This document shows, one piece after another, positions 29,999 to 53,746 of a stretch of DNA of 64,000 nt (position 1 is its first letter; the number at the start of each line of letters is the position of its first letter). This DNA is from an uncultured Alphaproteobacteria bacterium. Its GTDB lineage: Bacteria > Pseudomonadota > Alphaproteobacteria > RF32 > CAG-239. The stretch is from NCBI GenBank assembly GCA_934277435.1, contig CAKQUE010000001.1, forward strand, positions 781 to 64,780. Reading direction: 5' to 3'. Below the pieces are notes generated by a model. That model had not been told where the DNA came from and did no database searches. It was given only the letters and a program-made list of their open reading frames with translations. The translations under genes and the position numbers were made by a program.

Positions 29999-32900
29999 TT
30001 ATGGATAAACCGCACAATATGGAGAATGCATTCTAGCCAATTGTTTATTCAAACTTTTTTGCCCTTCTTGGTCATATACATCTAAAACAGCCGCATCGGC
30101 TTCTGATGTTTTTATTTTTTCTTCCAGTTCAACTAAATCTTCGTCGGCAGAAATCTGAACTTTTTCATCACCGTCTTTTTCCAACACAGCAACACCATGT
30201 AAAAGTCGTTCTTTATTTGTATTCACTATTTCAGCGGTTCCCTTTATATTTCCAATCAGTTCTTTCAAGCGGCGTAAATTACCTGTTTTATGCTCTTCTA
30301 AAGTTTCCGAAGCTTTTTCATAGTCTGCGTCATTCATTAAATCAAAATCTTCGCTCAATGTATAGCCCAATTCTTCAAACATTTTACGCAAATTTTCTTT
30401 TATATCTTCAACCTGCAATTTTTGCTGAGCCACTACTTCAGCTAAAGCTTTTTCATTTTCCCTATTGTCCAGATAATCGCCAAACTGGTTAGCTCCAAAC
30501 ATTGCTCGATTGGCAATATAATAATCCATATTAAATTTAACTTCTCCACCTTTTGCTTTGTTCATATTTGCTGATTTTATCAAAGTTACAACAGCGGCAT
30601 TAAACGCAGGGTTAAATGTGAGTTTTTTAACTTTAAGCACACCTAAATTACCTAGAGAAATTGCATTTTCCTCCACTATTTGTACAATCTGTCCCAACTC
30701 ACTGGCTTCGGCCCAAGATTGTGGGTCGATGGTAGTTTTAGTGCTGAGTATCTGACTTTCAGCAGCCTCAACATCTGTTACGGCAGATTTGCCTTTGATT
30801 TTTTCGGCAGACAAATTCACACAATTCTTACTGTCTGGCAGAGGCTTTGCCAGCAGATATTCATTTTTCAAAGCAGCAACATATTTTCCATCTTCTATTT
30901 TGCATGGATATTGACCTGCTGACCAAAAAACATCGGTACTCTTGTCGCCGGTTAAAAACTCTTCCAGATTAAGCTCTTTTTCCACAAAAGGCCGCGGTTT
31001 CAAAACATTCTGCCAAATTTCCGGAATTTCAAGACCGCTTTCGCTAAAGCTTGGTCCGGCCAAAGTTATATCAGCCACATTTTCCGGAGTGCTATTAACA
31101 CCGCCTTTTTTGTACTTTAAAACAGCGTCGTAGTCATCAGTGTCAAAATGGAAGATTTCGCGCAAAGGAGCTGCTTGTAATGTAGAATTCTTTGGTGCTG
31201 TAAAATCTCTTTCTTTTTCAACAATGCCAACAAAATAATCACTATCGGCTTTTTCCTTATCTTCACTGGCGATTCTAGCAAAAACATCTTGCATTGCATC
31301 AGCAAAAAACAAACTTCCAGTCACACTGCCGGAAACGTCTATTTTCCGTAAATTTGCAAGCAACTCATTGTGTGTTTGCACAACACTTTTGTTGTCTGGC
31401 AAATATATTGAATCACCCATGCTTTTAATATTGTTATAAGCCTCATCTATTTTACTTTGCGCTTGTGTGCTGGCGGCAGTAACAATATTATGTATAGACG
31501 AAAGTATCGGCGTGTTTTCAAATATAAGTTTTATAGCCGCTTTATAAGCAGTCATTTTGCCCTCATAATCAGAAACGGCTTTATCAATGCTTTGCTTATA
31601 TTTATTTTGCGCTGCGCTATAATCTTTGATGTATTTTGCCTGCAACTCTTTGATTTGTTTATCAATATTTTCCAATTCTGCGCGGCTATTATCAATAGAT
31701 TTCTCTAAGCCACTAGTTTTAGCAGACAAAATTGTTCTTTGTTTTAGGGCTTCCGCACGTTTAACTTCACCATCTTTAATAGACGTTGAAAATGTTTTAC
31801 GCATTAAAGAAACTGAGGTACCGCGTTCAAGCTTACTGCCATAGTCAAGCGCATCTTCAGATTTTGGAGTAGAAACCTCTGTATCGCCTATTACATCGTT
31901 ATGAGCATTCAATTCATCTCTTGTATCACTTAGTGTGACACTGTCAGCATCCATCTTTGCATAAACAGATGTTTTATGGTTTTGCAAAGATTTTAAACTT
32001 GCTCTATATGTATTAGTAAGTTTATCCAAGCTTTTTTGTTCTTCTTCCAACAATTTATCAATTTCTTCAGTTGTCGGGCCTGCTTTTATGAGAGAACTTA
32101 ATTTATTTATGCTATTTTTGTTCTCTTGTCTTTGCTGAGCGGCAGTTTTGATTATCTTGCCTTTACCATCAGTAATATCCTTATATTGTTTCTTATCGTT
32201 AAACGAAGTAACATTAGATAACAGAAGTGAAAGTAGGTGCGTTTCATCAACATAGTTTTTCATATTTTCATATTTACCAGAAAGATACGCGTCATAAAAA
32301 TGTTTTTGGTCATTCCAAACATCACGCTTGCCGGTCATTGCGCCAAAATCCGATTTACCATTAATAGCGTCACTATTAATTTTGGCTGAAACTTCAGCAC
32401 CAATAGTCCAATTAACCAACGCGTTTTTTCTGGATTCCGCATACATGTCGTCTTCTGTTGAAGGCTTTTTATAAGTTTTAACATTTTTACCTTTGGAATC
32501 TTTTTGAGAAGCAGCTTCTTCATTTTTATTTATATCATCTACTGAGGCTGCTTGGGTTACACTTTGATCAATTTCTTCCGAAATATAAATAGAATCTTCC
32601 TGATTTCCATCTTGGTCTTTAGATGTTGTTGCTTCATACACATCTTCTTGTTCATTACTTTCTTCAGTCTGAAACTCTTCATACAGTTTCATCAGCCAAG
32701 CCTGTATTCCTTTGTCCGATGATGTTTTATACAAAGTACCGTTTTTAGTTTCTGCGGTTTTGATAGCTGTGGCTTTAACAAATTTTTTCCCGTTCCAAGC
32801 TTCTGAACTATCCTTATAATATCTAGACAAATATCCCATAACACAGCTTTCAGATTCATTTAGATATTGTTTAGCTCGATTATGATGCTTCATCATTTCA

Positions 32901-33967
32901 TGATATGTTTTGAACACTTCTTTATATTTAGGCAATAATTGTTTATAGTTATGAGCAATCACTGCCTGATTCAAATTATCATTTGCATCAGAAATTATTT
33001 CCAAGCTTTCAAATTCAGTCTCTTTTCCTTCTACTGGAGATTGCAAACCGGCGCCTGACAAATCATCAAACAAACTGTCATCTGTAGAAGCCGAAGCAAT
33101 GGTCGTTACTTCATGATATGAGGCAACATTAGTTTTGCTATTCAAATATATTTCAGCCGAACTTCTTTTTTGTTTTCCAGATGCGTTTTCAGCATCATAC
33201 TCCAAAACTTGCGCATTGCCATTTATATTTTTAATTGCATCATATTGAGCATTCATAGCATTTAGAAACAATGTATAGCGCATAATTTTATCATATATTC
33301 TAACTGCGGTTAAAGCGTTACGCCATAAACAAACCTTATCTTCTTTGCCTTCTTTCTGACAATTATATTCTTCCAACCCTTCTTCAGAACAATCTTGACC
33401 GGCAACCAAACATTTTTCGATATTATCCAGCTGTGCCAACATAGTACGCAGTTCTTTATTCATCTCTCGAGCGGTGATATACATCTCCATCGTACTATCC
33501 ATTTTTAACTGGCGCGCATTATCATCATAACGACTTTTTACACCACCATTTTTAGATGGATATTGCAAAAACAATTTGATAAAGGCTTCTTGCACCTTCC
33601 CTTCATCTTCTATTTTATCGGCCGTAGTTTTTAGACTGTCTTCAATTGTTCGCGAATAAGAAACAACTTTTTTACGCTTACTAAGACTTTGACGCAAAGA
33701 GTTAAATTTACTTTTTCCTAAATCAACAGCATATCCTTTTGCCGACTGAGTAACCATGGTCACCAAATTAGTACCATTAAAATTTTGCCGTACCTGCTCA
33801 ACTTGGGCAATTGTGGTGGTTAACGTACTGATTGTGGCTGGAGTACATTGAAAGCACAGCTGAGGAGCCATCGGCAGCAATGGAGTATAATCTGGCCAGA
33901 CCGCAAAAGCAGGGCGATTGACTAATAAGCTGCTAAAAAAAGCTAAAATATAAATAATTTTTTTCAT
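29999..33967 (-). CDS. Giant (~1320 aa) secreted coiled-coil-rich protein of unknown function in the VirB5/VirB6 slot
   Basis: Start placed at MKKIIYILAFFSSLLVNRPAFA (signal peptide) rather than the ORF-track start at 34117; no TM helices; long Lys/Glu-rich coiled-coil segments. Confidence 0.5.
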   Translation of the reverse strand: MKKIIYILAFFSSLLVNRPAFAVWPDYTPLLPMAPQLCFQCTPATISTLTTTIAQVEQVRQNFNGTNLVTMVTQSAKGYAVDLGKSKFNSLRQSLSKRKKVVSYSRTIEDSLKTTADKIEDEGKVQEAFIKLFLQYPSKNGGVKSRYDDNARQLKMDSTMEMYITAREMNKELRTMLAQLDNIEKCLVAGQDCSEEGLEEYNCQKEGKEDKVCLWRNALTAVRIYDKIMRYTLFLNAMNAQYDAIKNINGNAQVLEYDAENASGKQKRSSAEIYLNSKTNVASYHEVTTIASASTDDSLFDDLSGAGLQSPVEGKETEFESLEIISDANDNLNQAVIAHNYKQLLPKYKEVFKTYHEMMKHHNRAKQYLNESESCVMGYLSRYYKDSSEAWNGKKFVKATAIKTAETKNGTLYKTSSDKGIQAWLMKLYEEFQTEESNEQEDVYEATTSKDQDGNQEDSIYISEEIDQSVTQAASVDDINKNEEAASQKDSKGKNVKTYKKPSTEDDMYAESRKNALVNWTIGAEVSAKINSDAINGKSDFGAMTGKRDVWNDQKHFYDAYLSGKYENMKNYVDETHLLSLLLSNVTSFNDKKQYKDITDGKGKIIKTAAQQRQENKNSINKLSSLIKAGPTTEEIDKLLEEEQKSLDKLTNTYRASLKSLQNHKTSVYAKMDADSVTLSDTRDELNAHNDVIGDTEVSTPKSEDALDYGSKLERGTSVSLMRKTFSTSIKDGEVKRAEALKQRTILSAKTSGLEKSIDNSRAELENIDKQIKELQAKYIKDYSAAQNKYKQSIDKAVSDYEGKMTAYKAAIKLIFENTPILSSIHNIVTAASTQAQSKIDEAYNNIKSMGDSIYLPDNKSVVQTHNELLANLRKIDVSGSVTGSLFFADAMQDVFARIASEDKEKADSDYFVGIVEKERDFTAPKNSTLQAAPLREIFHFDTDDYDAVLKYKKGGVNSTPENVADITLAGPSFSESGLEIPEIWQNVLKPRPFVEKELNLEEFLTGDKSTDVFWSAGQYPCKIEDGKYVAALKNEYLLAKPLPDSKNCVNLSAEKIKGKSAVTDVEAAESQILSTKTTIDPQSWAEASELGQIVQIVEENAISLGNLGVLKVKKLTFNPAFNAAVVTLIKSANMNKAKGGEVKFNMDYYIANRAMFGANQFGDYLDNRENEKALAEVVAQQKLQVEDIKENLRKMFEELGYTLSEDFDLMNDADYEKASETLEEHKTGNLRRLKELIGNIKGTAEIVNTNKERLLHGVAVLEKDGDEKVQISADEDLVELEEKIKTSEADAAVLDVYDQEGQKSLNKQLARMHSPYCAVYP

Positions 33968-33983
33968 AGTCCGCTCCTTTACT

Positions 33984-35219
33984 TTAAAAACCCTGCCAAC
34001 CGCTGATAGAGTCTTGTAATTTGTCGTTAACTGTATCTCGCAAACTCTTCTTTTTGTAGATATACTCGTCCAAATTAAACTTAGTGACATCTTGTTTGGT
34101 ATTTTTGAATTTATCATTCCAGCTATTAATCTCGACCATGCTGGTAAATCTCATTTCTGCCAACAATAATTCCAAGTAACGAGCTGCCAATTTGGCATTT
34201 TGCACGTCTGCCCCTATTTTTGCCGCCATACCACCAAGCTGACCATCAACTTTGGTGGTTTGCTCCAAATAAGCCTCAGATTTCTTTTCAAACTCTTCAC
34301 CTTTTACGGCGCCCACAACAAGAACCCTCATTAAATTTTGCAAAGCTTTATAGTATTCTTGTTGACGTTTTGTCCTAACTCGGGCAATACTTTTGGAGCC
34401 GATATATTCATATTTGCCAACAAAAAATTCCGCTATATCTGCGCCATACATATCTTCAAGCTGTTGTTGTTCTTCTTGAGCCTCAATGTCTTCTTCGTCT
34501 TTTTTGCCTGAAAACAGCGAATCTGTAACTTTATCCAGATATTTTTCCGTATTCTTACCAGCAATTGTTTGTTCCAAATCAGATACCTCCTTAGCCGCTG
34601 CCGTGGCATTTTTTTGCAGCTGTTCTGCTTTTTTATCTCGCAGAGCTGTTTGATTTTTCAAATCTTCCCTTTCAGCTTTCAACTCAGCAATTCTCTTCGC
34701 CAATTCTTCAAGTTCTTTCGCATCGCCTTTATCAGCTTTTAACCTTGCCTCCAAAATCATTAATTCTTCATCAATATTTTTTTCTTTTGCGGCGCGTTCT
34801 GTAGCCAAAGCTTTTTTATAATCGTCAAGCATAGATTGCGCCATTGCTGCCGCTAATTGCGTATTGGCAAAATTTCGGGTTGCATTGCTAAAAGAGCTGC
34901 CCAAATCAACTTTTTCACCAGAAACAGCTTGGTTTTTCACATTATCGGAAAAATCAACAACCATACCTTCCATTTGTTTTTGTAAAATATTAAACAGAAT
35001 TCCGCCTTCTGCTCCACCGGCTTTTATAGCTTTGTCGTGTAAATGTTTCAAGGAATTGCTATATCGATTTTCCCATTTTTCTTGTTCTTTTTGAACAGAC
35101 TTACCAAAATTTTCAGCTTGGGTAAAAAAGTCCAATTTAGAAATAGCATAAGCATTTGAACAAGTCAGAAAACAACTTGCTAAAACCAGAGTAAGGATTT
35201 TTAATGACATATTCTTCAT
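33984..35219 (-). CDS. Secreted coiled-coil protein (411 aa), possible VirB5-like minor pilus component
   Basis: Signal peptide MKNMSLKILTLVLASCFLTCSNAYA; strongly helical K/E/A-rich. Confidence 0.4.
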   Translation of the reverse strand: MKNMSLKILTLVLASCFLTCSNAYAISKLDFFTQAENFGKSVQKEQEKWENRYSNSLKHLHDKAIKAGGAEGGILFNILQKQMEGMVVDFSDNVKNQAVSGEKVDLGSSFSNATRNFANTQLAAAMAQSMLDDYKKALATERAAKEKNIDEELMILEARLKADKGDAKELEELAKRIAELKAEREDLKNQTALRDKKAEQLQKNATAAAKEVSDLEQTIAGKNTEKYLDKVTDSLFSGKKDEEDIEAQEEQQQLEDMYGADIAEFFVGKYEYIGSKSIARVRTKRQQEYYKALQNLMRVLVVGAVKGEEFEKKSEAYLEQTTKVDGQLGGMAAKIGADVQNAKLAARYLELLLAEMRFTSMVEINSWNDKFKNTKQDVTKFNLDEYIYKKKSLRDTVNDKLQDSISGWQGF

Positions 35220-35233
35220 GGTGTTTCCTTTCT

Positions 35234-36934
35234 CTAATTATTTCCACTGTTCGGCCAAGTAGAAGTTTTTGAAGATGCCCCTGAGGAATTATTTCCCCAG
35301 AGTGAGAAATTCCAATTTGGTGAACTTTTGGTGTTTTTCTCATCACCTTTTGGCGCAAATGGAGGGGTAACTTGCGAATCGTCTGTTTCCTCTTGACTTG
35401 TATCACTTTCTTTGTTGGCTGGTTTTGGCTGATTTTCATGTGTCAACGGATATTCAAAATCAGAACCATCTTTTGTATCAGAGCCAGTATCAGTATCTGT
35501 ATCGGCAGAGCCTTCTGTTTTTTCATTATCTTTATTTTTATCTTCTGTTTTTACCGTGTTTTTCACATCATTATAGGCGTTCTCAGCCCCTTTCGCTGCT
35601 GCCTTCCAGTCTCCTTTGCCAACATTATAAATAATACTGTCTGAAGAGTTTGCACCTTTTTGCACACCGGACATTATATTTTTCGTTTTGTCATCCATAT
35701 AGCTTCCGCCAACACTGGTCGCTCCAGATGCCAAATTGCCGATTGCAGCGCCATAATTGCCACTTTGTACATTATTCGCAGCATTTTTACCCGCATTATA
35801 GGTCGAACCAGCGTTACCAATATAATCACCGGCCTTATCTAAGCCATAATCTCCGGCAATATCACCGGCTTCACCCAAAGCCCCGCCGTAATCACCGCTT
35901 TTAACGTCATTTATGGTTCTTTTACCTTTATCATAAGTACTGCCGGCTTTACCAATATAATCACCGGCCTTATCCAAGCCATAATCTCCGGCAATATCAC
36001 CGGCTTCACCCAAGGCACCGCCGTAGTCACCATTTTTAACCTTGCCATAGATATCCTTGCCTTTATTAAACATTTCTTTACCTTTATTTGGGTCTATCAG
36101 CAAGTCTGCACCGTTTCCGTTTTGTAAACCATTAGCCAGATTCAAAGAACTTGCTTGTTCTTTTTTAGCGGCTTCCTCTGCAGCTTGCTCGTCTTTATCC
36201 GCTCTACTAATAGACACGCCCAAATATTCAATAGATGCTTTTTGACCGTAGTAATTAGCGGTAAAGTCCAAAATAGAGCGCCAACGGGCGTTAGCTCGGT
36301 CAACGGTTTGAGTATACGACTTAGTTAAAATCGGTATAAGTCCCTCACATCTTCCGCTATCACTTTCGCTTCCGCCTTCTGTGCTGCCGCTGCACTCTTC
36401 AATTAGTTCTTTCAGCTGCTTTTCTTCTTCATCAAGTTGTTCGGTTTCATTGATGATGGAGCGACGGGTTACTAAAGCCTTTGCATATAGTATTGACACA
36501 TTCTGCACTTGCAATTTGTTTAACTTTTCGCGGCGTTCTCTGGCTTTTTGAGCATCATTATTGACTTGATTATTTCGAGACATCTCATTATTGACGGCAT
36601 TAGCTAATTCTGGAGTAGCAAAACTTCCTTTAACTTTTCCGGAAATTCCTTTTAAGACTTTAGAACGGATTATCATTTGCGGAGCATATTTAACAGCCGA
36701 ACCGATTGCCAATTTTTGACCAGCCTTTTTCAAACTCTTTAGTTTATTAGGACTGTTGGTCAATTGCTGCATATCAAGCTCTTTACCCGTATAATTCTTG
36801 ATAATGGTGTTTATTTGCTCCTGATAAGTAGTCAGTTGATCTTGAATAAAAGTGGTCGGATCAAAGTCTGCAAAAGAAGCATAAGGAAACAGAGCTATAA
36901 TAGCACTGCAAACTACAGTTATTTTTATTCTCAT
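35234..36934 (-). CDS. Secreted protein (566 aa) with internal 45-aa tandem repeat (GDYGGALGEAGDIAGDYGLDKAGDYIG…) and S/T/D/N-rich tail
   Basis: Signal peptide; repeated block seen at protein and DNA level. Confidence 0.45.
   Translation of the reverse strand: MRIKITVVCSAIIALFPYASFADFDPTTFIQDQLTTYQEQINTIIKNYTGKELDMQQLTNSPNKLKSLKKAGQKLAIGSAVKYAPQMIIRSKVLKGISGKVKGSFATPELANAVNNEMSRNNQVNNDAQKARERREKLNKLQVQNVSILYAKALVTRRSIINETEQLDEEEKQLKELIEECSGSTEGGSESDSGRCEGLIPILTKSYTQTVDRANARWRSILDFTANYYGQKASIEYLGVSISRADKDEQAAEEAAKKEQASSLNLANGLQNGNGADLLIDPNKGKEMFNKGKDIYGKVKNGDYGGALGEAGDIAGDYGLDKAGDYIGKAGSTYDKGKRTINDVKSGDYGGALGEAGDIAGDYGLDKAGDYIGNAGSTYNAGKNAANNVQSGNYGAAIGNLASGATSVGGSYMDDKTKNIMSGVQKGANSSDSIIYNVGKGDWKAAAKGAENAYNDVKNTVKTEDKNKDNEKTEGSADTDTDTGSDTKDGSDFEYPLTHENQPKPANKESDTSQEETDDSQVTPPFAPKGDEKNTKSSPNWNFSLWGNNSSGASSKTSTWPNSGNN
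35816..36030. repeat. Intragenic tandem repeat, 135-bp period, two copies with ~80-bp near-identical cores
   Basis: accaatataatcaccggccttatc[t/c]aagccataatctccggcaatatcaccggcttcacccaa… occurs at 35816 and 35951. Confidence 0.7.
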
Positions 36935-36973: not shown

Positions 36974-38356
36974 TTAATTGTTTGCTTTCTTCTTTTGACC
37001 TGTGATTACCACCTCATCCATACACCCAGTGCATTTTCCTTCTTTGCAGGCAAAAGTTTTACTTCCATCTTTGTATTTGCCGTCTGGACAAGCAACTTGC
37101 TTTGAGCCATCGGAACATACCGCGCCACTTGTTGATGCACTAAGCAGCTTATAACCACTTACCTCTTTTAGATTATCATCATAACAAGCAAGTTCCTCTT
37201 CTTCTGCACCATTAGGATCTTCATCGGCATCTAAATCCAAATTAGGTTCGCTGTCATCTTGTGGATTATCCGGTGTAACAACGATTTCTTCTACACAAGA
37301 TGTACATGTTCCGCCTTTGCACGCAATAAACGTTCTCTCGCCACTTTGATAAATACCGTCCTGACATGCTGATTCTTGATTGCCATCGGAGCATACAACA
37401 TTTCCAGACGCAGAATTTTTTGGAGTTATACCGCTAATCTTTTTTAAGCTTTCATCTGAACATAATTCTTCTGAACTTTGGCTATCTGATGTTTCGTCGT
37501 CAGTAATTGTTGATGAGGTATTGATTTCTGATGAAGATATTGTTTTATCCCCGCTTGCTGCATTGCCAGCAACCGTTGTACCAGCTGTTCCCTCTTCTGC
37601 AGTTCCTTCATCATCATTTCCGGCAGCCAAAGCCGATAACTCAATATCCTTAATACCAGATATAGCTTCATATTTTAATCTTTCAGCATAAAGGTCACGC
37701 ATTGTATTCATAACATCAGTTGAAATACTTATGGTATTGGCAATACCGACATTATCTTCGTGCTCGGTTTTGGTTTGACTGACTGCTTTTCCGGTAGAGT
37801 TTTGAATTTCTTCATAATTAGCAATGGCCGCACCTTTGGCAACCGCTTGCGACATCATAGCTTTTAGCTCTTCCGCCCGAATTTCATCCCAGTCATTTAA
37901 TCCCTCTTGGCGAATTAATGAATCTTTATTTTTTATTTTTTTTACCATCTTATTAATGCAATCATAAAGCTTTTCCGTATCTTTAACCATATCAATAGCG
38001 TTAGTTTTGCAAAAAATAGCCATAGTGTTAGGAATAACCTGACGTCCATTGACCAAACCGCTATAATTAACATCTATCTTTTCTTTTTTGGGTTTATTCC
38101 CATTGCCGGTGCCACCGGTAGCGGAACTAGATGCAGAAGTAGATGATGTTGACGAAGGAGTTGACGTCACCGGCTTAGGTTCAGAGCTAGATTCTGTTGT
38201 TGTAGTTGTAATTGTTGCCAAATCAGTTGTAGTGGTTTCTGTCGTGGTAGAAGTTCCGTTTTCAGTAGTGCTATCTGCGGCTTTAGCGTATTCAGCCATT
38301 CCGATAAGCAAAGAAGCAACGGTGGCAATTTTTAGAAATTTATTAAATGTTATCAT
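36974..38356 (-). CDS. Secreted Thr/Ser-rich protein with two C-terminal Cys-rich ~45-aa modules
   Basis: Signal peptide; poly-T/S linker; duplicated module C-SDG…AC-DG-Y–G–TF-CK-G-CT-C—E-VVT. Confidence 0.45.
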   Translation of the reverse strand: MITFNKFLKIATVASLLIGMAEYAKAADSTTENGTSTTTETTTTDLATITTTTTESSSEPKPVTSTPSSTSSTSASSSATGGTGNGNKPKKEKIDVNYSGLVNGRQVIPNTMAIFCKTNAIDMVKDTEKLYDCINKMVKKIKNKDSLIRQEGLNDWDEIRAEELKAMMSQAVAKGAAIANYEEIQNSTGKAVSQTKTEHEDNVGIANTISISTDVMNTMRDLYAERLKYEAISGIKDIELSALAAGNDDEGTAEEGTAGTTVAGNAASGDKTISSSEINTSSTITDDETSDSQSSEELCSDESLKKISGITPKNSASGNVVCSDGNQESACQDGIYQSGERTFIACKGGTCTSCVEEIVVTPDNPQDDSEPNLDLDADEDPNGAEEEELACYDDNLKEVSGYKLLSASTSGAVCSDGSKQVACPDGKYKDGSKTFACKEGKCTGCMDEVVITGQKKKANN

Positions 38357-38378: not shown

Positions 38379-39164
38379 TTATTTTTCTTCTGTATCTGTT
38401 TTAGCACCATCGCTTTCTGCTTTTTCTTCGGCTTTTTTCTTTTCTTCGGCTTGCTTTTGTGCTTCAGCACGCTTTTCTTCTTCAGCCTTTTGCTGGTCAT
38501 GTTCATCTTTCATACCTTGATAAACTTTCATACCAGATTTACCGGCGGAATCATAGAGATTTTTGCCCACTGTGGTAATAGAGCCGCCGCTTTTAATTGC
38601 GTCAGCCCCGCCAAACGCTGCGTCTGACGTGCTGCGCCCATATTTTTTCACCCAGCTGTAAGCCTGACTCCATTTACTTTTTTTAGCCTTTTCATTATTT
38701 GCTTTTTGAGCTGCATCAGCTTGTTTTTGCGCTTCTGCATTATCTTTAGCTGTCTCTTCGGCTGCTTTTGCTGCTGTTTCTTGATTTTTTTCTTTTACTT
38801 TAGCTTCTTCTTCTTTTTTCTTTTTTGTAGCGTCAGCACCGTCTTCCAAAACCTGTTTGGAATCGGCGTACATTTTGCCATATCTATCATAATCGCCACG
38901 TTCTATTTTGCCAAACAATTCGCCGGCAGCAGCAGCATAACCACCGTTTTGGATTTGTCTGATAATATTCAGATTGCTTTGGACTTCTATTTGTACTTGT
39001 TTTGCTATTTGTGATGCTTGTTTAGCAGAATCGCCCAAACGTTTCCAGTCCACTGTCGGTAGCGGATAAGCCATGCAAACGGAAGACCACATATAAATTA
39101 AAAGGCTTGCCAAGGTGCAAACAACAATATTTACTCTAAAAACTTTCATAACGTCCTCCGTCAA
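38379..39164 (-). CDS. Secreted Lys/Glu/Ala-rich low-complexity protein (261 aa), VirB5-position
   Basis: Signal peptide then helical low-complexity; immediately downstream of virB4. Confidence 0.4.
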   Translation of the reverse strand: MTEDVMKVFRVNIVVCTLASLLIYMWSSVCMAYPLPTVDWKRLGDSAKQASQIAKQVQIEVQSNLNIIRQIQNGGYAAAAGELFGKIERGDYDRYGKMYADSKQVLEDGADATKKKKEEEAKVKEKNQETAAKAAEETAKDNAEAQKQADAAQKANNEKAKKSKWSQAYSWVKKYGRSTSDAAFGGADAIKSGGSITTVGKNLYDSAGKSGMKVYQGMKDEHDQQKAEEEKRAEAQKQAEEKKKAEEKAESDGAKTDTEEK

Positions 39165-39232: not shown

Positions 39233-41662
39233 CTAGGCAATATTTAAATATTTTGTAACAAATCCATCTTCCCCATATTCTTGAATGAGTTGTTGAACCA
39301 ACAAAACATTTTTTCTTCCTGAATTGTAAATACGCAAATATTTGCCTAATCCACCTAAATTTACATCCAAAATAACCGATTCACCAGTTACTGGGCGTGA
39401 TAATAATATGGCGTACGGAAAATCGCGGTAACTTTTACCAAAAATAAAATCAAGTTCGCTTTGAGTCAAATTCCAGTTGGCGTAGTCTTCTATCTGTGCT
39501 TGCGGGTTGCGGAAAAAGATAACCGTTTGACATTGACCGCGAATAACCTCGCCGACACCTAACTTATCAACAATATTCGGTTGTTGGAAGGCGCAGAGAT
39601 AGGCTTGACGTTTTTTACGTCCCTCTTGCAAACCAATTATAAAGTAATCACGGAACATTGGGTGTTTTAACATTGGCGCCGTTTCATCAATCATAATCAA
39701 TGACGGCACACCGGTTTCACCAGTTTCAGATTGAATACGATGCATAATATAGCTGATTACCGCCGGCGCAAGGTTTTCATCTTCAAAAATATGTGTAAAG
39801 TCAAACGCCATAAAACGACGGCTCTTCAAATCCAAACTATCGTCTTGCCCATTGAAAATAGCACCATACTGATCCGGATTTACCCAACGGTATAATTCAC
39901 GACGCATATTTCCGGTTGGTGAAAAACAACTCTTATACAAGTTTTTCAACAAACGTTCTTCCGGCCGCAAATAGTCAAATGCCGTGGTAATAGCGCGTGC
40001 AACTTCTCTTTCGGCCAACGCATCGTCAACCATGGTGATAGCTTTCAACCAACGACGCAAAAATGCTCGGTTTTCAGGAGTATTTGCGCAGTCAAACGGA
40101 TTAAGCGATACATTTTTTTCATCACCGTCGAAACCTACATAAGCACCTTTAACAGCGCGGGTAAAAATTTGAGCACCCAAGTGTCTATCAAAGAAGAAAA
40201 CTCGCAAATCACCATGCCGCATAGCTTGTCCGGCTAAAAATGTGAGCAATGTGGTTTTACCTTGACCAGTAGGACCGATAATGCAACAGTGCGCCACGGC
40301 AGACTCTTCGCTGGACACATGGAATTGAAAACGATACGCTGAACCCGACATAGTTCTAAACACAGTAATAGCGCCATTTCCCCAGTCACTTTTGCTAAAT
40401 CCTTCCGCCGGTTTATCCATAGTTGTCGCCATAGCGATAACTCTTGACAAGTAGCGATACGTTCTTGGATAGGTGTCGTATGTTGGAAATTGCGTAAAGA
40501 ACACAGCTTGATTAACCCAGCCTTCTCGAACAGGTGTCACACCAAACGCGCGACAGATACGTTGTACTTCAGATTCCCCAAAATTTATCTCTTCTTTTGA
40601 TTCGCCTTTGATAATCACTGTAAACGCATATTCACACAGCGATTGATAGTTATTATCACTATCATCAATAGCAGCTAAAGCTTCGCTGTATTGGTCCGAA
40701 ACATTTTCTGAAAAGCTGGTAACACGCGACATTCTTTGTTGCTGCATCAAAAGCATACGCCCTTCCGAACGGAAAAGCGGACGGATATTTTGCAATATTA
40801 CTAGCTCGCAATCAATAGCATTCAGCGAATAAATCATACTTTCATCCATAGCTTCGCCGCTGGAACGAATACCCATAGCAATTTCATAGAGATTTTTTTC
40901 GCCGGAAAAGAAATGAATTATACCTTCCTCTTTGGTAAAATGAATATGGTCGGCAGTCAGCATCTCGCACAATCTAGCGCCTTCAACATCTCTAACCTTT
41001 GGCTCTGGTTTAGAAATAGGGCTGCATAGCCGCGAAAACAAATAAAACGGGCTATCCTCTGCCTTACTTTCAGGAGTTTCATACATTGGTCTGACACCGT
41101 ATTCACTTAAAGTAGAAAGCAAACTTTGAGAAGCGTAGTTCAAATCTTTTAAAGCGTCCTTACGGTCAATAACCGACAGAATTATATAGTGCTTGTTGCT
41201 ATACACCCTATCCATATTTTGGAACCAAATTTGCGAAATTGTGTCAAGCAGCTGGTTATTGAAATCTCTTTTTTCTTTTTCCAATGAAATTCTTTCACGC
41301 GTTGTGATAACTCGGCAGACAATTTGCATATTAGCCATATCATCAATCCACGATTTGCGAGCCTCCATCATGGAATATACTTTTTCTCCAGTGGCGGCAG
41401 ACAAATCCATACCCTCAAGTTTGAAAACACGGGCAAAAGAATTATTACTGCACTGGATAGTAACGCCATCAGACATCAGTTTGGTAAACGGTAAAAAATC
41501 TGAAACGCGAGATTCCCTTGGCTGCGGCAAAACCATTCGACCGAATCTGGTTGAAAGCAAAACCGCAAACGACGCCGCCGAAGCAATACCAATCAAAGCC
41601 ACAATTACTTGTAAGCTGTTTAATCCTTCGACAAATATACTCATAAAATCATAGTTATTCAT
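39233..41662 (-). CDS. virB4: T4SS ATPase VirB4/TrbE/CagE
   Basis: 809 aa; Walker A GPTGQGKTTLLTFL; VirB4 length and position after virB3. Confidence 0.85.
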   Translation of the reverse strand: MNNYDFMSIFVEGLNSLQVIVALIGIASAASFAVLLSTRFGRMVLPQPRESRVSDFLPFTKLMSDGVTIQCSNNSFARVFKLEGMDLSAATGEKVYSMMEARKSWIDDMANMQIVCRVITTRERISLEKEKRDFNNQLLDTISQIWFQNMDRVYSNKHYIILSVIDRKDALKDLNYASQSLLSTLSEYGVRPMYETPESKAEDSPFYLFSRLCSPISKPEPKVRDVEGARLCEMLTADHIHFTKEEGIIHFFSGEKNLYEIAMGIRSSGEAMDESMIYSLNAIDCELVILQNIRPLFRSEGRMLLMQQQRMSRVTSFSENVSDQYSEALAAIDDSDNNYQSLCEYAFTVIIKGESKEEINFGESEVQRICRAFGVTPVREGWVNQAVFFTQFPTYDTYPRTYRYLSRVIAMATTMDKPAEGFSKSDWGNGAITVFRTMSGSAYRFQFHVSSEESAVAHCCIIGPTGQGKTTLLTFLAGQAMRHGDLRVFFFDRHLGAQIFTRAVKGAYVGFDGDEKNVSLNPFDCANTPENRAFLRRWLKAITMVDDALAEREVARAITTAFDYLRPEERLLKNLYKSCFSPTGNMRRELYRWVNPDQYGAIFNGQDDSLDLKSRRFMAFDFTHIFEDENLAPAVISYIMHRIQSETGETGVPSLIMIDETAPMLKHPMFRDYFIIGLQEGRKKRQAYLCAFQQPNIVDKLGVGEVIRGQCQTVIFFRNPQAQIEDYANWNLTQSELDFIFGKSYRDFPYAILLSRPVTGESVILDVNLGGLGKYLRIYNSGRKNVLLVQQLIQEYGEDGFVTKYLNIA

Positions 41663-43848: not shown

Positions 43849-45513
43849 GTGCGGATTCCTGCATTTAAGGGTAATGAAATGCCAAATTTTGGTTGGAAAT
43901 GTTTTATTGGTAGCTTTCTTTTTTCTTTAGCGGCGGTGTTTGCCTCCACTAAAGTTTATCTTTTATTGCCTATTGAGCACCAAAATCCTGTAGAGAAAAC
44001 AGCTTTCGAGGACATTGAAACCAAAAATATAGACTTATTTGCAGACAATGAAGAATCCAATCCGATTGTTGAAAAGTTCAATGAAATAAATAATAAACAG
44101 GCTAAAATAGCTGCTATTCAAGATATTGCTCCGACTACTGACACCCCAAAAAGCGTGCAATCTGATGTTTCTGTGGCAGATAAAGAGGATAAGCCCATTG
44201 AAATATCTTCACTTTCTTCAGATGTACTTTATGCTCCAGATGAAGATATGTCGGAAATTTCTGTCACTGATGCTGATAATTCAGCAAATAAAGATATTGA
44301 CGAAGCGCCAGAAATTTCTGAAAATCAAGAAACAAATCCTGTAAATAGTAACTCTTTTGAGCAAGCAATCTTGGTGGACGATACTGAAGATGAAAGCTTG
44401 CAAATTGCCGACGCCTCCGAAGCCAGACCATTTACTATACCTTTATTGCATAATTTTCAGGTTGCTGCGCAAAAAGTAGAAGTTTCTAATGAAGCTGCAA
44501 ACAGTCAAGTCGCTTTAGCCTCAAACAATGTTTTAATTCAAAATATCGGCACCGAAAACAAAATAGCTGCCGCCAGCGGAGAACCAAATAACTTAGTTCC
44601 AGACACAGCTGAGAACGATTCCGACCCTTGGGAAGTGGCAGCAGTGGGAAACTCTCATATAACAAAAAATAAAATCGATAGTTTCACAGGCGATGGAAAT
44701 AAAACTATGGAGGCTTTAGACCAAGATAAGCTTGCTGAGGCTAAATCGCCTAACGAAAAACAAGTTGCGTATAAAATGGTTAAAAACATTTTAATCCCAA
44801 TTCCAGAGGACATCGCTAATGATGAAAATTTGACGCCGCAGCTTTCTTATTCGGAAGAAAATAAAAAACTAAGCGAAAAATTACAAAAAGAAGGCATCTT
44901 AAATCCACCAACACCAATAAAGGAAGAAATAAAAAACAAAGAAGAAACGACCACAACTCCTGTGCCTTTGACTAACAATCAAAGTGAAAATAAACTATCT
45001 GAACCGAGCCTCACTGATAGTATTGCAGCTTGGTTTTCTTCCAATCCTTCGTCAGATAATAATTCTACAAACAATAAGGCGGATAAAGATAAAGATAAAG
45101 ATAAAAATAAAAAAGAAGAAAGCAGCAGTTCTACTTTTAGCAAACTTTTGGGACTAGGAGCCAAAAAAGACAATAATATTGCTCCCTCAGAACTGAAACT
45201 AGCTTTTCAGCCCGACCGCGCAGAGATTTCTGGACAGACGCTTGATTGGTTAAAAGCTTTTTCTCTGAACGCTGTTAACAATGAAAACGTGTTTGTAGAA
45301 ATACGCATTGACGGTTCAAGCTCTTTTGAGCTACAACAAAAACGTTTGAACCTTCTATATTCAATCTTAGTAAATAATGGTGTTGATTATAATAAAATTA
45401 ACATAATTTTTACGGATAGAGAGCCAAACTCTTTTATTATTAGAAATGTTAGATATGCCAGCGAAGATGATGCTATCAATGTTCATAAAAAGGCTTACAA
45501 TCCATGGTATTAA
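43849..45513 (+). CDS. Acidic bitopic/secreted protein (554 aa), first gene of pilus operon
   Basis: N-terminal hydrophobic segment FIGSFLFSLAAVFA; long acidic region with KDKDKDKDKNK stretch; C-terminal β-rich domain. Confidence 0.4.
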   Translation: MRIPAFKGNEMPNFGWKCFIGSFLFSLAAVFASTKVYLLLPIEHQNPVEKTAFEDIETKNIDLFADNEESNPIVEKFNEINNKQAKIAAIQDIAPTTDTPKSVQSDVSVADKEDKPIEISSLSSDVLYAPDEDMSEISVTDADNSANKDIDEAPEISENQETNPVNSNSFEQAILVDDTEDESLQIADASEARPFTIPLLHNFQVAAQKVEVSNEAANSQVALASNNVLIQNIGTENKIAAASGEPNNLVPDTAENDSDPWEVAAVGNSHITKNKIDSFTGDGNKTMEALDQDKLAEAKSPNEKQVAYKMVKNILIPIPEDIANDENLTPQLSYSEENKKLSEKLQKEGILNPPTPIKEEIKNKEETTTTPVPLTNNQSENKLSEPSLTDSIAAWFSSNPSSDNNSTNNKADKDKDKDKNKKEESSSSTFSKLLGLGAKKDNNIAPSELKLAFQPDRAEISGQTLDWLKAFSLNAVNNENVFVEIRIDGSSSFELQQKRLNLLYSILVNNGVDYNKINIIFTDREPNSFIIRNVRYASEDDAINVHKKAYNPWY

Positions 45514-45559
45514 CTTCTGCTTGCTATTTTAATTTCAACCTGTATTATAGGAAAATACG

Positions 45560-46339
45560 ATGAGATACAACTTTGAAAGAAATATTATGACTAATAAACT
45601 TGCTTTGATGAGTTTATGCTTGAGCTTAGTAATGATAAGCGGCTGCGTAAGCGACAAAAGTTATATGGAAGAAGAATGCGAAAACGGTATTTGCACCAGT
45701 GAAAAAGAGTATCGTGAAGTTTGCACAGAAACTCCTGATGGCTTCAGTGTATGTGAAGACAGTGTTGAACCAGCAGAAAACGTTAACTATACCAGAACTC
45801 AAGCCGATTTCCGCAAATATGGCGAGCGTACTCCTAGAGATCATCGTATTACGCAAGCCGGCGCCGGAAACAATATTTCGGCTGCCGTTCCGCCAAGCAT
45901 AGATGATGAAGTTGTTGATTATGAAGCTGAAGTTATGGAACGCGATACTCCGACAACACCTTGCGCGGATGGTGTGACACCTGCTGGCGCACCTTGCCCT
46001 GCTGCGGCTGTGAATACATCTGCTGCGGAAACAGAAGAGAATACCGAAACAAATTCGGAAGAAGAAGATCAAAATAAAGATTGGTTGGCTGAAGAAGGTC
46101 AAAGCCTGAAAGAATTATTAACAGCATGGAGTGAAGAGTCCGGCTGGAGATTAATTTGGAAAACCAACCGCAACTATACTTTAAACGCAGGCGCTATGTT
46201 CAGAGGTAATTTTGCCGATGTATCGTCTGCCCTTGTACGCGCTTTTGCCCGAGCAAGACCTGCTCCAATAGCCACATTTTATAAAGGTAACCGCGTCTTG
46301 GTAATTGAAACTATGGAGGACGAAAATGCGTATGACTAA
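45560..46339 (+). CDS. Lipoprotein with TcpQ/PilL-like C-terminal domain (secretin partner)
   Basis: Lipobox VMISGC; Cys-rich N-part; C-terminal …RGNFADVSSALVRAFARARP…FYKGNRVLVIE…; overlaps the downstream secretin gene, whose start is taken at 46326. Confidence 0.45.
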   Translation: MRYNFERNIMTNKLALMSLCLSLVMISGCVSDKSYMEEECENGICTSEKEYREVCTETPDGFSVCEDSVEPAENVNYTRTQADFRKYGERTPRDHRITQAGAGNNISAAVPPSIDDEVVDYEAEVMERDTPTTPCADGVTPAGAPCPAAAVNTSAAETEENTETNSEEEDQNKDWLAEEGQSLKELLTAWSEESGWRLIWKTNRNYTLNAGAMFRGNFADVSSALVRAFARARPAPIATFYKGNRVLVIETMEDENAYD

Positions 46340-47972
46340 TTTACTGAAACTTGCCGTTGTTGGAATTTTAGGCGTTACTGTTGCTTGTTCCGTTTCACCG
46401 GAAATTGACGAATCTATCTCGCGTCAAACCGAAAACGCGTTAGATTTGAAGCAAAAAGCCGCCGTTCCGGGCGACCCTATTCCAGATGACGTTGTAAGAG
46501 TTAAAAACGATATTTGGCTTGGCGACACCAGCAGTGTTGAATTTGAAGGTCAGCCTGTTCCGGCTTATTTGGAAACTAAAGATGGTATTACTTTAATTAG
46601 TAACCGCCCGATTACCCTTTATGAAATCGGCTCAATGATTAATAAAATCACCTCTCTTTCGGTACGCTATGCTCCAGAATTAGAAGAAAATGCCGTTGCT
46701 AATGCTGATAAAAACCAACCGGCAATGAAAGACATCGGTGCTCAATGGACAGATTCAACCAAGATGATTGTAAACTACAAAGGTCCTATCAGTGGTTTGC
46801 TTGACGAAGTTTCTAACCGTTTTGGAATTTGGTGGAAGTATGAAAAGAATGAAATCTATTTCTACAAATACATCACTAAAACATTTGTTCTTTATTCTTT
46901 ACCGACAAATCCGTCTCTGAGCGTTTCTGTTGGCGGTTCCGGCGGCTCTTCCAGCATTTCGCAGAGCAGCTCAGTTGACGGTATGGATATGTGGGCAAAT
47001 ATTCAAAGCACAATCAGTTCTATGATTACCTCTGATTCAAACTTGGTAATGGATAAAGGCGCGGGCACAATTACTTTGACTGCCACACCGACTGATATCA
47101 AACGTGTTGCAAAATACATTAATGAACAGAACCAACGCGTTTCAAAACAAGTTGCAATCAGTGTAAAAGTTATTCAAGTTAACATCTCTAATGCTGATAA
47201 ATATAGTCTTGACTTGTCTGCAACATTTAAAGGACGCGGCTCAATAAAAGATGTTACTGGGCACAACACATCAAGTATTGATAATCCTTTGACTGATTTA
47301 ACAATGGGCATTAGTTCAAGCCGTTGGAGTGTTGACGCCGCTATGCAGGCCTTGTCACAAGAAGGAAATACAAACCTTGTGACCAGCGGTACGGTAACAA
47401 CAATGAATAATAAACCGGCTCCAATTCAGGTGGTGAAAACACAAAACTATATTTCACAAATCACCAAAACAAACAGCGGCGATTCAGATACTTATGATAT
47501 TTCTGTAGAAACAGAAGAAATTGAGACAGGTTTCACCATGAGCGTTTTGCCAAGAATCTTGGATCATGGTCGTATCTTGATGTTCTTTAACTTAACTCTA
47601 TCTGATTTGTTATCTCTTGACGCGATAAATGTTTCCGGCGGTTCATCTTCTGACAGTTCATCATCGGATAAGACTGATGACAGTGACAGTGATAGTGACA
47701 GCAATTCCGGCGGTGACAGCGAATTTATTCAAAACCCTGTTATCGAAACCCGCGGCTTTACTCAAGAAGTTGCACTTAAATCTGGTGATACTTTGATTTT
47801 GGCAGGTTATGAACGTGTTGAAGATTCAACAGATAAGAAGGGCGTTGGCTCACCGAAAAACACTCTGTTGGGTGGTTCTCAAGCAGCAACAAGAAACAGA
47901 ACAATTTTAGTTATCATGTTAACTCCGGTTGTTTTGGAATCTCCTCTGTCGCCAGAGTCCAGAATGAACTAA
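46326..47972 (+). CDS. Type IVb-pilus-type secretin (BfpB/TcpC/PilN-like), probable lipoprotein
   Basis: C-terminal secretin domain (…FTMSVLPRILDHGRILM…VIETRGFTQEVALKSGDTLILAGYE…RTILVIMLTPVV); N-terminal signal ending …GVTVAC. Confidence 0.75.
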   Translation: MRMTNLLKLAVVGILGVTVACSVSPEIDESISRQTENALDLKQKAAVPGDPIPDDVVRVKNDIWLGDTSSVEFEGQPVPAYLETKDGITLISNRPITLYEIGSMINKITSLSVRYAPELEENAVANADKNQPAMKDIGAQWTDSTKMIVNYKGPISGLLDEVSNRFGIWWKYEKNEIYFYKYITKTFVLYSLPTNPSLSVSVGGSGGSSSISQSSSVDGMDMWANIQSTISSMITSDSNLVMDKGAGTITLTATPTDIKRVAKYINEQNQRVSKQVAISVKVIQVNISNADKYSLDLSATFKGRGSIKDVTGHNTSSIDNPLTDLTMGISSSRWSVDAAMQALSQEGNTNLVTSGTVTTMNNKPAPIQVVKTQNYISQITKTNSGDSDTYDISVETEEIETGFTMSVLPRILDHGRILMFFNLTLSDLLSLDAINVSGGSSSDSSSSDKTDDSDSDSDSNSGGDSEFIQNPVIETRGFTQEVALKSGDTLILAGYERVEDSTDKKGVGSPKNTLLGGSQAATRNRTILVIMLTPVVLESPLSPESRMN

Positions 47973-47991
47973 CAATTAAAGGAGAAAATCC

Positions 47992-50833: not shown

Positions 50834-50835
50834 AA

Positions 50836-52605: not shown

Positions 52606-52614
52606 GAGTGAAAA

Positions 52615-53733: not shown

Positions 53734-53746
53734 AAAGGATAGAGTT

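What the first reader, a model, noticed from the sequence alone, without database searches (positions are those of the whole stretch)
36974..37400. Tandem Cys-rich ~45-aa modules at the C-terminus of a Thr/Ser-rich secreted protein
Two copies of C-SDG-x-ACxDGxYxxGxxTFxCKxGxCTxCxxExVVT, each following an acidic segment, after a poly-Thr/Ser presumed stalk. Eight Cys per module suggests a disulfide-knotted small domain, typical of adhesin tips or receptor-binding modules. It is unusual for a bacterial periplasmic/surface T4SS-associated protein.
Basis: seen in the sequence. Interest (0 to 1): 0.6.

Follow-up and report, generated by a model that had tools for sequence, protein, structure and literature searches.

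The report
Cysteine-rich modules on secretion-system protein
A secreted protein encoded inside a type IV secretion gene cluster of an uncultured gut alphaproteobacterium ends in two copies of a small six-cysteine module that matches no known domain, evolves fast and differs sharply between near-identical strains, which fits an outward-facing contact piece, although its function is untested.

Summary
ORF 36974-38356 (-), 460 aa, ends in two homologous modules (46% identical, E=6e-20) with six invariant Cys each, not eight. The full module (~65 aa) starts about 23 residues upstream of the reported start.

The layout is signal peptide, Thr/Ser-rich segment, conserved helical core, linker, module 1, acidic linker, module 2. 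The gene is the second after virB4 in a chromosomal T4SS cluster whose gene order holds in 20 gut and rumen Alphaproteobacteria genomes.

The Cys pattern is conserved in orthologues, which carry 0-4 modules. No Pfam, NCBIfam, PDB-sequence or Foldseek match was found. A profile search of 1.84 billion proteins found the module essentially only in this family.

The core is 90-96% identical among close orthologues and the modules 58-80%. dN/dS is 0.03-0.05 for the core and about 0.1-0.4 for the modules. Two strains are about 98% identical in DNA up to the module boundary and 53-79% beyond it.

Best reading (confidence about 0.5): these are disulfide-locked beta-hairpin modules forming the variable, recombining outer end of a T4SS-associated protein, probably for target contact. 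Similarity to VirB5 could not be shown. It is a new domain family in a known kind of role.

The parts
36974..38356 (-). Whole ORF (460 aa plus stop), identical to database protein P0001; a T4SS-associated secreted protein
38279..38356 (-). Signal peptide, res. 1-26 (MITFNKFLKIATVASLLIGMAEYAKA|ADS; an AxA-type SPase I site, no lipobox Cys)
   Evidence: read from the sequence; an N-terminal hydrophobic stretch recurs in all homologues
38072..38278 (-). Thr/Ser-rich low-complexity segment, res. 27-95
   Evidence: poorly conserved (57-67% in close orthologues); pLDDT below 50
37637..38071 (-). Conserved helical core, res. 96-240, with two invariant Cys (C116, C133) and a TEHEDN motif; this core is the whole mature protein in ~210-aa minimal family members
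37472..37636 (-). Gly/Ala/Ser/Thr/acidic linker, res. 241-295
37271..37471 (-). Cys-rich module 1, res. 296-362 (Cys 299, 322, 331, 346, 351, 354)
   Evidence: (hmmsearch domain E=5e-25)
37196..37270 (-). Acidic inter-module linker, res. 363-387 (DNPQDDSEPNLDLDADEDPNGAEEE)
36998..37195 (-). Cys-rich module 2, res. 388-453 (Cys 391, 414, 423, 437, 442, 445); followed by the basic tail QKKKANN
   Evidence: (domain E=4e-26)
39233..41662 (-). Context: VirB4 ATPase, two genes upstream
   Evidence: PF03135, E=7e-15
38379..39164 (-). Context: orf261, a secreted protein of unknown family lying between virB4 and this gene
35234..36934 (-). Context: orf566, the next secreted protein of unknown family. 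Its 5' part lies in the same strain-variable block as the modules. Its L015 homologue carries one module-like core at its C-terminus.

Best explanation
The ORF encodes a Sec-exported accessory protein of a chromosomal P-type T4SS. It has three functional parts.
(i) A conserved ~145-aa helical core, which is all that the smallest family members possess, most likely docks the protein onto the secretion apparatus or pilus.
(ii) Low-complexity Thr/Ser-rich and acidic linkers act as flexible spacers.
(iii) The C-terminal modules are small all-beta hairpin domains. Each has a 4-Cys core (two disulfides) plus an accessory C1-C6 disulfide that ties the N-terminal arm to the C-terminal CxxC.

The modules are the fast-evolving, copy-number-variable, recombining outer end of the protein. 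They most likely mediate contact with or recognition of a target surface (host, mucus or another cell), with invariant Cys/Gly/Tyr as scaffold and variable loops as the binding face.

Shown: the modules are real; the Cys are conserved; the module is restricted to this family; the gene sits in a T4SS cluster with conserved gene order; the modules diverge faster than the core; the gene is mosaic between strains.
Inferred: the disulfide bonds and their pairing; surface exposure; anchoring through the core; a ligand-binding role.
For: Module and Cys pattern:
- The two modules are homologous.
- Six Cys plus G-x-Y are invariant in 20 diverse copies.
- Orthologues carry 1-3 modules and some carry more.
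- Distant rumen and horse-gut relatives keep the core but replace the modules with unrelated repeats (P0030-P0034).
- Minimal members of ~210 aa are signal peptide plus core only.

Disulfides:
- C6 never occurs without an upstream C1 (0 of 79 unique modules), and 4-Cys minimal cores exist.
- The mature Cys count is even in 54 of 56 members. One exception is truncated at a contig end.
- AF2 gives six beta strands at mean pLDDT 76.5 for module 2, and 68-85 for both modules in the full-length model.

Context:
- The gene order virB2a-virB2b-orf142-virB4-orf261-orf460-orf566-orf411-orf1372-virB8 is conserved in the related genomes.
- VirB4 stays 85-95% identical while orf460 drops to 28-52%.

Rates and mosaicism:
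- In close orthologues the core is 90-96% identical and the modules 58-80%.
- dN/dS is 0.03-0.05 for the core and about 0.1-0.4 for the modules.
- L029 and L030 are 96-100% identical in DNA through orf261 and orf460 up to codon ~290, then 53-79% across the modules.

No known domain:
- No match by sequence or fold.
- The profile found only 17 proteins among 1.84 billion representatives at E<=0.001. Three of these are spurious and the rest belong to this family.

Background: VirB5-type proteins sit at the pilus tip and are regarded as the T4SS adhesin (review PMC12624023).
Against: - Nothing here shows surface exposure or ligand binding.
- The core has no detectable similarity to VirB5, by hhalign against Agrobacterium and IncX4 VirB5 or by PDB profile searches. 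The docking idea rests on gene position and protein size only.
- dN/dS in the modules stays below 1, so relaxed constraint is not excluded.
- The divergent block between L029 and L030 runs on into the first ~700 nt of orf566. It is therefore not a clean module cassette.
- Disulfide pairing is inferred from Cys co-occurrence, not from coordinates.
- No Dsb gene was seen in the window, and the rest of the genome could not be scanned.
Confidence: 0.5

Rival explanations
1. The modules are structural or intra-machine elements. They would be disulfide-hardened, protease-resistant spacers, or docking pieces for another fast-evolving T4SS protein such as orf566, and would have no external ligand.
For: - The variable block shared by L029 and L030 covers both the modules and the 5' part of orf566. 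This would fit co-evolving partners.
- One orf566 homologue (L015) carries a module-like core itself.
- All five secreted proteins between virB4 and virB8 diverge fast.
- dN/dS stays below 1.
Against: - Copy number ranges from 0 to 4, and the modules are fully replaced by unrelated repeats in some lineages. That is hard to square with a fixed structural contact.
- Adjacent DNA is co-transferred in any recombination tract, so co-variation with orf566 is weak evidence.
Confidence: 0.25
2. The modules are metal-binding: a zinc-ribbon-like or [2Fe-2S] ferredoxin-like Cys cluster.
For: - C4-x4-C5-x2-C6 equals the plant-type ferredoxin CX4CX2C motif.
- Weak matches exist: PDB ferredoxins at E=0.02-0.2, Pfam Fer2 in 2 of 26 modules at E>=0.12, and RING at E=0.28.
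Against: - All these matches are below threshold.
- The ferredoxin alignment needs a 7-residue gap where ferredoxin has its helix, and the fourth distal Cys ligand is absent.
- Minimal 4-Cys modules lack the CxxC altogether.
- There is only one CxxC, not the two knuckles of a zinc ribbon.
- The signal peptide is Sec-type, whereas cofactor-loaded Fe-S proteins use Tat (established knowledge).
- Cys parity is even and Cys are gained and lost in pairs.
Confidence: 0.07
3. The modules are a released bioactive payload, such as a defensin-, knottin- or protease-inhibitor-like peptide or an effector domain, and not part of the apparatus.
For: - They are small, Cys-rich, secreted and fast-evolving, and they are flanked by flexible acidic linkers that could be cleaved.
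Against: - No similarity to any inhibitor or toxin family was found.
- The modules are always fused to the conserved T4SS-linked core.
- No conserved processing site is evident in the linkers (alignment).
Confidence: 0.1

Closest known systems
VirB5 / TraC / TrwJ / TrbJ (Pfam PF07996), the T4SS stalk and pilus-tip protein
   Same: - Sec-exported and helical.
- Encoded just downstream of virB4.
- The core-only family members are ~210 aa, which is VirB5-sized.
- VirB5 is regarded as the T4SS tip adhesin (PMC12624023).
   Different: - No sequence or profile similarity was detected.
- This is the second gene after virB4, not the first.
- No VirB6 gene is recognisable next to it.
- I know of no VirB5 protein with a C-terminal Cys-rich module array.
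Bartonella Trw system (multiple TrwL/TrwJ variants) and Helicobacter CagL (own knowledge, not tested here)
   Same: - The T4SS surface components are diversified for host-surface binding.
- This locus also has two VirB2 genes and several fast-evolving secreted proteins after virB4.
   Different: - In Trw the variation comes from tandem gene copies, and CagL binds through an RGD motif.
- Here the variation lies in modular C-terminal domains and in recombination between strains.
- No homology was shown.
PilV shufflon adhesins of the IncI (R64) type IVb thin pilus (own knowledge)
   Same: - A conserved N-terminal part carries exchangeable C-terminal segments that set target specificity.
- An R64-like type IVb pilus cluster lies next to this T4SS.
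   Different: - PilV varies by site-specific inversion within one cell.
- Here the differences are between strains. No inverted cassettes or recombinase were seen, although this was not searched systematically.
DUF4189 / XAC2611, a Cys-rich periplasmic protein of Xanthomonas X-T4SS loci (bioRxiv 10.64898/2026.05.09.723464)
   Same: - Encoded in a T4SS locus and Sec-exported.
- Has six conserved Cys forming disulfides in a small globular domain.
   Different: - No Pfam DUF4189 hit at E<=1 for the protein or E<=10 for the modules.
- It has a different domain size and a different role: it protects kin cells by binding VirB5.
Eukaryote-type disulfide-rich mini-domains: granulin, CBM14/peritrophin-A, VWF TIL, ephrin-receptor-like/TNFR repeats
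   Same: - Stacked beta hairpins are held by disulfides.
- A conserved aromatic residue (G-x-Y) recalls glycan-binding hairpins.
   Different: - Only non-significant hits were found: Foldseek E>=2.9 for the module model and E=3.5-6.7 for the full-length model, with TM<=0.43; Pfam Ephrin_rec_like in 1 of 26 modules at E=0.059.
- The Cys spacing differs.

Membership tests
VirB5/TrbJ/TraC (PF07996) | Sequence match to the family profile or to solved VirB5 proteins | tested here: not met
   - No PF07996 hit at E<=1.
- PDB profile searches with the full-length alignment and with the core alignment returned no VirB5, TraC or TrwJ.
- hhalign of the core against Agrobacterium VirB5 and IncX4 VirB5 gave probability below 1%.
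- Caveat: Agrobacterium VirB5 itself missed PF07996 in the same scan, so the family is hard to detect.
VirB5/TrbJ/TraC (PF07996) | Encoded between virB4 and virB6 in a T4SS operon | tested here: inconclusive
   The gene is second after virB4. No VirB6 or TrbL gene was recognised: orf1372 has no Pfam hit and no TM helices beyond its signal peptide.
VirB5/TrbJ/TraC (PF07996) | Sec signal peptide and a ~220-aa mature helical protein | tested here: met
   - The signal peptide is read from the sequence.
- Core-only members are 209-217 aa.
- AF2 predicts long helices for res. 110-236.
VirB5/TrbJ/TraC (PF07996) | Three-helix-bundle fold with a globular appendage; pentameric tip | tested here: inconclusive
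   The monomer AF2 model has pLDDT 30-73 in the core. Foldseek against PDB gave no VirB5 hit.
Zinc ribbon / zinc finger | Two CxxC (CPxCG) knuckles and a match to a zinc-finger profile | tested here: not met
   There is one CxxC per module, and none in the 4-Cys minimal modules. The best zinc-finger hit was RING at E=0.28. No zinc-finger family recurs across the 26 modules.
Plant-type [2Fe-2S] ferredoxin (PF00111) | Four Cys ligands CX4CX2C...X~29C on a beta-grasp fold with a helix | tested here: not met
   - Only CX4CX2C is present.
- There is no fourth distal Cys, and a 7-residue gap lies at the position of the helix.
- E=0.02-0.2 against PDB. Fer2 hit 2 of 26 modules at E>=0.12.
DUF4189 (XAC2611-type Cys-rich T4SS-associated protein) | Match to the Pfam DUF4189 profile | tested here: not met
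   It is not among the hits at E<=1 for the protein or E<=10 for the modules.
Disulfide-bonded extracytoplasmic domain (general class) | Exported, with Cys conserved, paired and even in number | tested here: met
   - The protein has a signal peptide.
- Six Cys are invariant.
- C1 and C6 are gained and lost together.
- The Cys count is even in 54 of 56 members.
Disulfide-bonded extracytoplasmic domain (general class) | Actual S-S bonds and their connectivity | not testable with these tools
   Model coordinates are not exposed. This needs mass spectrometry, a solved structure, or inspection of the AF2 model.

The most novel reading that the evidence does not exclude
The modules are a previously undescribed family of disulfide-rich receptor-binding domains. 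They would set the target specificity of a core-genome T4SS in human and animal gut Alphaproteobacteria, and would be exchanged between strains by recombination. This would be a modular specificity tip grafted onto a VirB5-sized stalk protein, something not known for any T4SS.
Probability: 0.3. Interest if true: 0.65.

Novelty: new variant of a known kind. Interest (0 to 1): 0.45.

Why it matters
How T4SSs recognise their targets is still open, and no specific receptor for a VirB5-type tip has been identified (review PMC12624023).

This locus pairs an almost invariant motor with a set of very fast-evolving secreted proteins. VirB4 is 85-95% identical across genera. One of the secreted proteins carries a compact, exchangeable, domain-sized module that can be expressed alone.

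If the modules are the recognition element, they give a tractable handle for finding what these common but uncultured gut Alphaproteobacteria attach to or inject into. Possible experiments include glycan or protein arrays and domain swaps. They would also add a new small disulfide-rich fold to the bacterial adhesin repertoire. If the modules are only structural, the finding is a modest annotation of a new domain family.

Tried and rejected
- A word-indexed search of the 5.8-billion-protein set with the module alignment returned nothing, because the query is too short.
- Three apparent extra module hits in the representative search were rejected. P0040 and P0043 are RCC1-like repeats sharing only 'C-DG-Y-G'. 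P0041 is a 4050-aa repetitive surface-type protein whose repeats share only 'KCNDGSF'.
- VirB5 homology of the core was tested three ways and not found. I therefore do not file the protein as VirB5.
- Paralogy among the four secreted proteins after virB4 was tested by hhalign. Only a weak similarity between the N-termini of orf261 and orf411 appeared (probability 77% over 76 columns that include the signal peptide). The orf460 core matched none of them.
- The ferredoxin and zinc-ribbon readings were considered and rejected; the reasons are in the rival explanation and membership rows.
- A recent DNA tandem duplication was rejected, because the two modules share only ~55% of nucleotides and TRF finds no array there.
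- A clean 'module cassette' swap was softened, because the divergent tract continues into orf566.
- No literature on this T4SS in gut Alphaproteobacteria was found.

Full report
**What is at the coordinates.**
The finding lies in the 3' part of a single ORF, window 36974-38356 on the minus strand (460 aa). The ORF is 100% identical to a metagenome protein seen on contigs up to 416 kb.

Read from the sequence and from the homologue alignment, the layout is:

| Residues | Segment |
|---|---|
| 1-26 | signal peptide, AKA\|A cleavage site, no lipobox |
| 27-95 | Thr/Ser-rich segment |
| 96-240 | conserved helical core, with invariant C116 and C133 and a TEHEDN motif |
| 241-295 | Gly/Ala/Ser/Thr/acidic linker |
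| 296-362 | module 1 |
| 363-387 | strongly acidic linker |
| 388-453 | module 2 |
| 454-460 | short basic tail |

**Checking the observation.**
The two modules are homologous: 46% identity and 73% positives over 63 residues, E=6e-20. Their DNA shares about 55% of columns, so this is an old duplication and not a fresh repeat. TRF sees no array there.

The reported start (37400, residue 319) therefore omits the N-terminal arm of module 1 and its first Cys.

The Thr/Ser-rich segment lies before the helical core and does not adjoin the modules. The acidic segments before each module are as described.

**Context.**
The gene sits in a P-type T4SS cluster, all on the minus strand:
- two VirB2/TrbC pilins;
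- a 142-aa ORF at the position where virB3 usually lies, with no family hit;
- VirB4;
- four signal-peptide proteins of unknown family (261, 460, 566 and 411 aa);
- a 1372-aa secreted coiled-coil-rich protein;
- two VirB8;
- VirB9 with a SPOR domain;
- a 1267-aa beta-flower/RHS-repeat protein;
- a 1406-aa VirB10 with a beta-flower extension;
- VirB11.

The flanks are housekeeping genes (yidC, rnpA, an EngB-like GTPase, an Mrp/NUBPL ATPase, lpt genes, degP) on one side and an R64-like type IVb pilus cluster on the other. The system is therefore chromosomal. No VirD4, relaxase or recognisable VirB6 lies in the window.

A scan of one genome per GTDB species found 20 related loci. All are from uncultured Alphaproteobacteria of human gut, rumen or horse faeces, apart from a few bins whose record titles name other taxa. 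The gene order is the same wherever the contig reaches. Across these genomes VirB4 stays 85-95% identical. The orf460 homologue drops to 28-52%, and its secreted neighbours to 23-50%.

**Is the module a known domain?**
No.
- Pfam and NCBIfam gave nothing for the protein.
- Scanning 26 individual module copies against Pfam at E<=10 gave no recurrent family. The hits were Fer2 in 2 of 26 at E>=0.12 and single hits to Ephrin_rec_like, CBM_19, Ldl_recept_a and a TNFR-like family.
- A module profile against all PDB sequences gave only plant-type ferredoxins at E=0.02-0.2. That match rests on Y-x-C-x4-C-x2-C. The alignment needs a 7-residue gap where ferredoxin has its helix, and the fourth Fe ligand is absent.
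- AF2 on a 26-sequence module alignment gave a six-strand all-beta model with mean pLDDT 76.5. The modules score 68-85 in the full-length model, whose other regions are poor.
- Foldseek of the module model against PDB (best E=2.9, TM<=0.33) and against BFVD (best E=0.68) found nothing significant.

**Distribution.**
An exhaustive HMMER search with the module profile covered 1.84 billion cluster representatives and found 17 proteins at E<=0.001. Three are spurious: two RCC1-like proteins and one giant repetitive surface-type protein. All the others share the same conserved core.

Within the window the module occurs only in this ORF. In one related genome (L015) a module-like 4-Cys core also sits at the C-terminus of the neighbouring orf566 homologue.

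**Anatomy of the module family.**
Orthologues carry one, two or three modules, and some carry more. In 20 diverse copies the six Cys, two Gly and the Tyr of G-x-Y are invariant.

Comparing 79 unique modules shows a minimal unit, C-x3-9-C-x-[DN]G-x-Y-x5-16-C-x4-C, with four Cys. This unit is decorated in different ways:
- the window type adds C1 (about 22 residues upstream) and C6 (the CxxC);
- a second type adds a C-x4-C pair upstream;
- a third type adds C-x2 before C4 and a Cys after C5.

C6 never occurs without C1 (0 of 79). Cys are thus always added in pairs. The mature Cys count is even in 54 of 56 distinct family members. One exception is truncated by a contig end.

Together with the Sec signal, this is the pattern expected for disulfides. 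I infer a C1-C6 bond plus two bonds within the core. It is not the pattern expected for a metal site.

More distant members (P0030-P0034) keep the core but carry unrelated Pro/Asn/Tyr-rich repeats instead of modules. The smallest members (209-217 aa) are signal peptide plus core only.

**Evolutionary behaviour.**
Among close orthologues (overall 70-78% identity) the core is 90-96% identical, while module 1 is 58-72% and module 2 is 64-80%.

Pairwise Nei-Gojobori estimates give dN/dS of 0.03-0.05 for the core and about 0.1-0.4 for the modules and linkers. dS is near saturation in several pairs.

Loci L029 and L030 are 96-100% identical in DNA through orf261 and orf460 up to about codon 290. Identity then falls to 53-79% across the modules: L029 has the two-module form and L030 the three-module form. 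It stays at 69-93% over the first ~700 nt of orf566 and returns to 94-98% afterwards. That is a recombination mosaic with one boundary at the start of the module region. The tract is not confined to the modules.

**What the core is.**
By position and size it resembles VirB5, but I could not show homology.
- There is no PF07996 hit.
- PDB profile searches found no VirB5, TraC or TrwJ.
- hhalign against Agrobacterium and IncX4 VirB5 gave probability below 1%.
- Foldseek of the low-confidence full-length model found no VirB5.

VirB5 is hard to detect in general. Agrobacterium VirB5 itself missed PF07996 in the same scan.

The nearest plasmid VirB4 (38.8% identity, Microvirga pMVF16-3) belongs to a conjugative-looking cluster that encodes a MobA/MobL relaxase and a VirD4-type coupling protein. 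Three unannotated proteins follow its VirB4, and the first has a faint PF07996 signal at E=0.17. By position that protein corresponds to orf261 rather than to orf460.

**Most likely mechanism.**
The conserved core holds the protein on the T4SS or pilus. Flexible Thr/Ser-rich and acidic linkers project a short chain of disulfide-locked beta-hairpin modules. The variable loops of the modules contact a target surface. The exact target cannot be named, whether host glycan, host protein or another microbe. The conserved Tyr and a second aromatic before C4 would suit sugar stacking, but that is speculation.

Confidence is about 0.5. The rivals are a purely structural or intra-machine role (0.25), a released bioactive peptide (0.1) and metal binding (0.07).

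**Comparison with known systems.**
Functionally this looks like the VirB5/CagL/TrwJ theme of T4SS tip adhesins (review PMC12624023). In its logic of a conserved stem with an exchangeable C-terminus it resembles PilV of IncI thin pili (own knowledge). It is not demonstrably a member of any of those families.

Cys-rich T4SS-associated proteins have a recent precedent in DUF4189/XAC2611, but that family does not match here.

**Verdict.**
It is a new small domain family in a familiar kind of role, set in an uncharacterised and interesting T4SS of uncultured gut Alphaproteobacteria. Interest is moderate (0.45), and higher if the recognition role is proven.

Noticed in passing
window 17358-43151 (- strand), and loci L004-L022: VirB4 is 85-95% identical across related gut and rumen alphaproteobacterial genomes. 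Every exported protein of the same cluster is far more divergent: VirB2 35-69%, orf142 28-55%, orf261 29-45%, orf566 23-41%, orf411 29-48% and orf1372 26-50%. That is an unusually steep contrast within one operon.
   Followed up: partly
window 29999-34117 (-): orf1372 sits where VirB6 would be expected. It is a 1372-aa secreted, coiled-coil-rich protein with no Pfam or NCBIfam hit and no TM helix beyond its signal peptide. Its likely true start is M51, MKKIIYILAFF. No VirB6/TrbL, VirD4 or relaxase was recognised among the window ORFs that were scanned.
   Followed up: partly
window 18342-26365 (-): VirB10 (1406 aa) carries a long N-terminal extension with 5-fold beta-flower repeats. The preceding 1267-aa ORF is made of beta-flower, DUF3659 and RHS-type repeats. 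VirB9 (26375-28105) ends in a SPOR peptidoglycan-binding domain. These are unusual decorations for T4SS core components.
   Followed up: no
window 43849-54295 (+), 54501-55466 (-): A type IVb pilus cluster of the R64 thin-pilus kind lies directly next to the T4SS on the chromosome. It encodes a TcpQ-like protein, a secretin, PilO, a T2SSE ATPase and a T2SSF platform protein, plus a second small T2SSE-family ATPase on the other strand.
   Followed up: no
window 35814-36066 (orf566) and orf261 (38379-39164): orf566 contains a 135-nt (45-aa) tandem repeat of 1.9 copies at 84% match, encoding GDYGGALGEAGDIAGDYGLDKAGDYIG. Similar 'GDY..A.G' motifs occur in orf261 and in orf566 homologues, which hints at a shared repeat among the secreted T4SS proteins.
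   Followed up: partly
L015 7604-8929 (orf566 homologue), residues ~382-420: One module-like 4-Cys core (GNGQCIKGNNVVACDDGIYDLFNGKVVVCKDRKC) sits at the C-terminus of the neighbouring gene's product in another genome (hmmsearch E=1e-6). This suggests the module has moved between adjacent T4SS genes.
   Followed up: partly
L022 6001-7506: In one genome the family appears as two adjacent paralogues: a 211-aa core-only protein, followed by a 331-aa core protein with one 4-Cys module.
   Followed up: no
window 1154-1453 and 2409-2708: A direct repeat of at least 300 nt at 97% identity, spaced 1255 nt apart, duplicates a PTS EIIA-2 gene (ORFs 1156-1599 and 2411-2854). This looks like a recent ~1.25-kb tandem duplication or an assembly artefact.
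   Followed up: no
window 36974-38356, residues C116 and C133: Two further Cys are invariant in the helical core across all family members, including those without modules. They probably form a helix-stapling disulfide.
   Followed up: no
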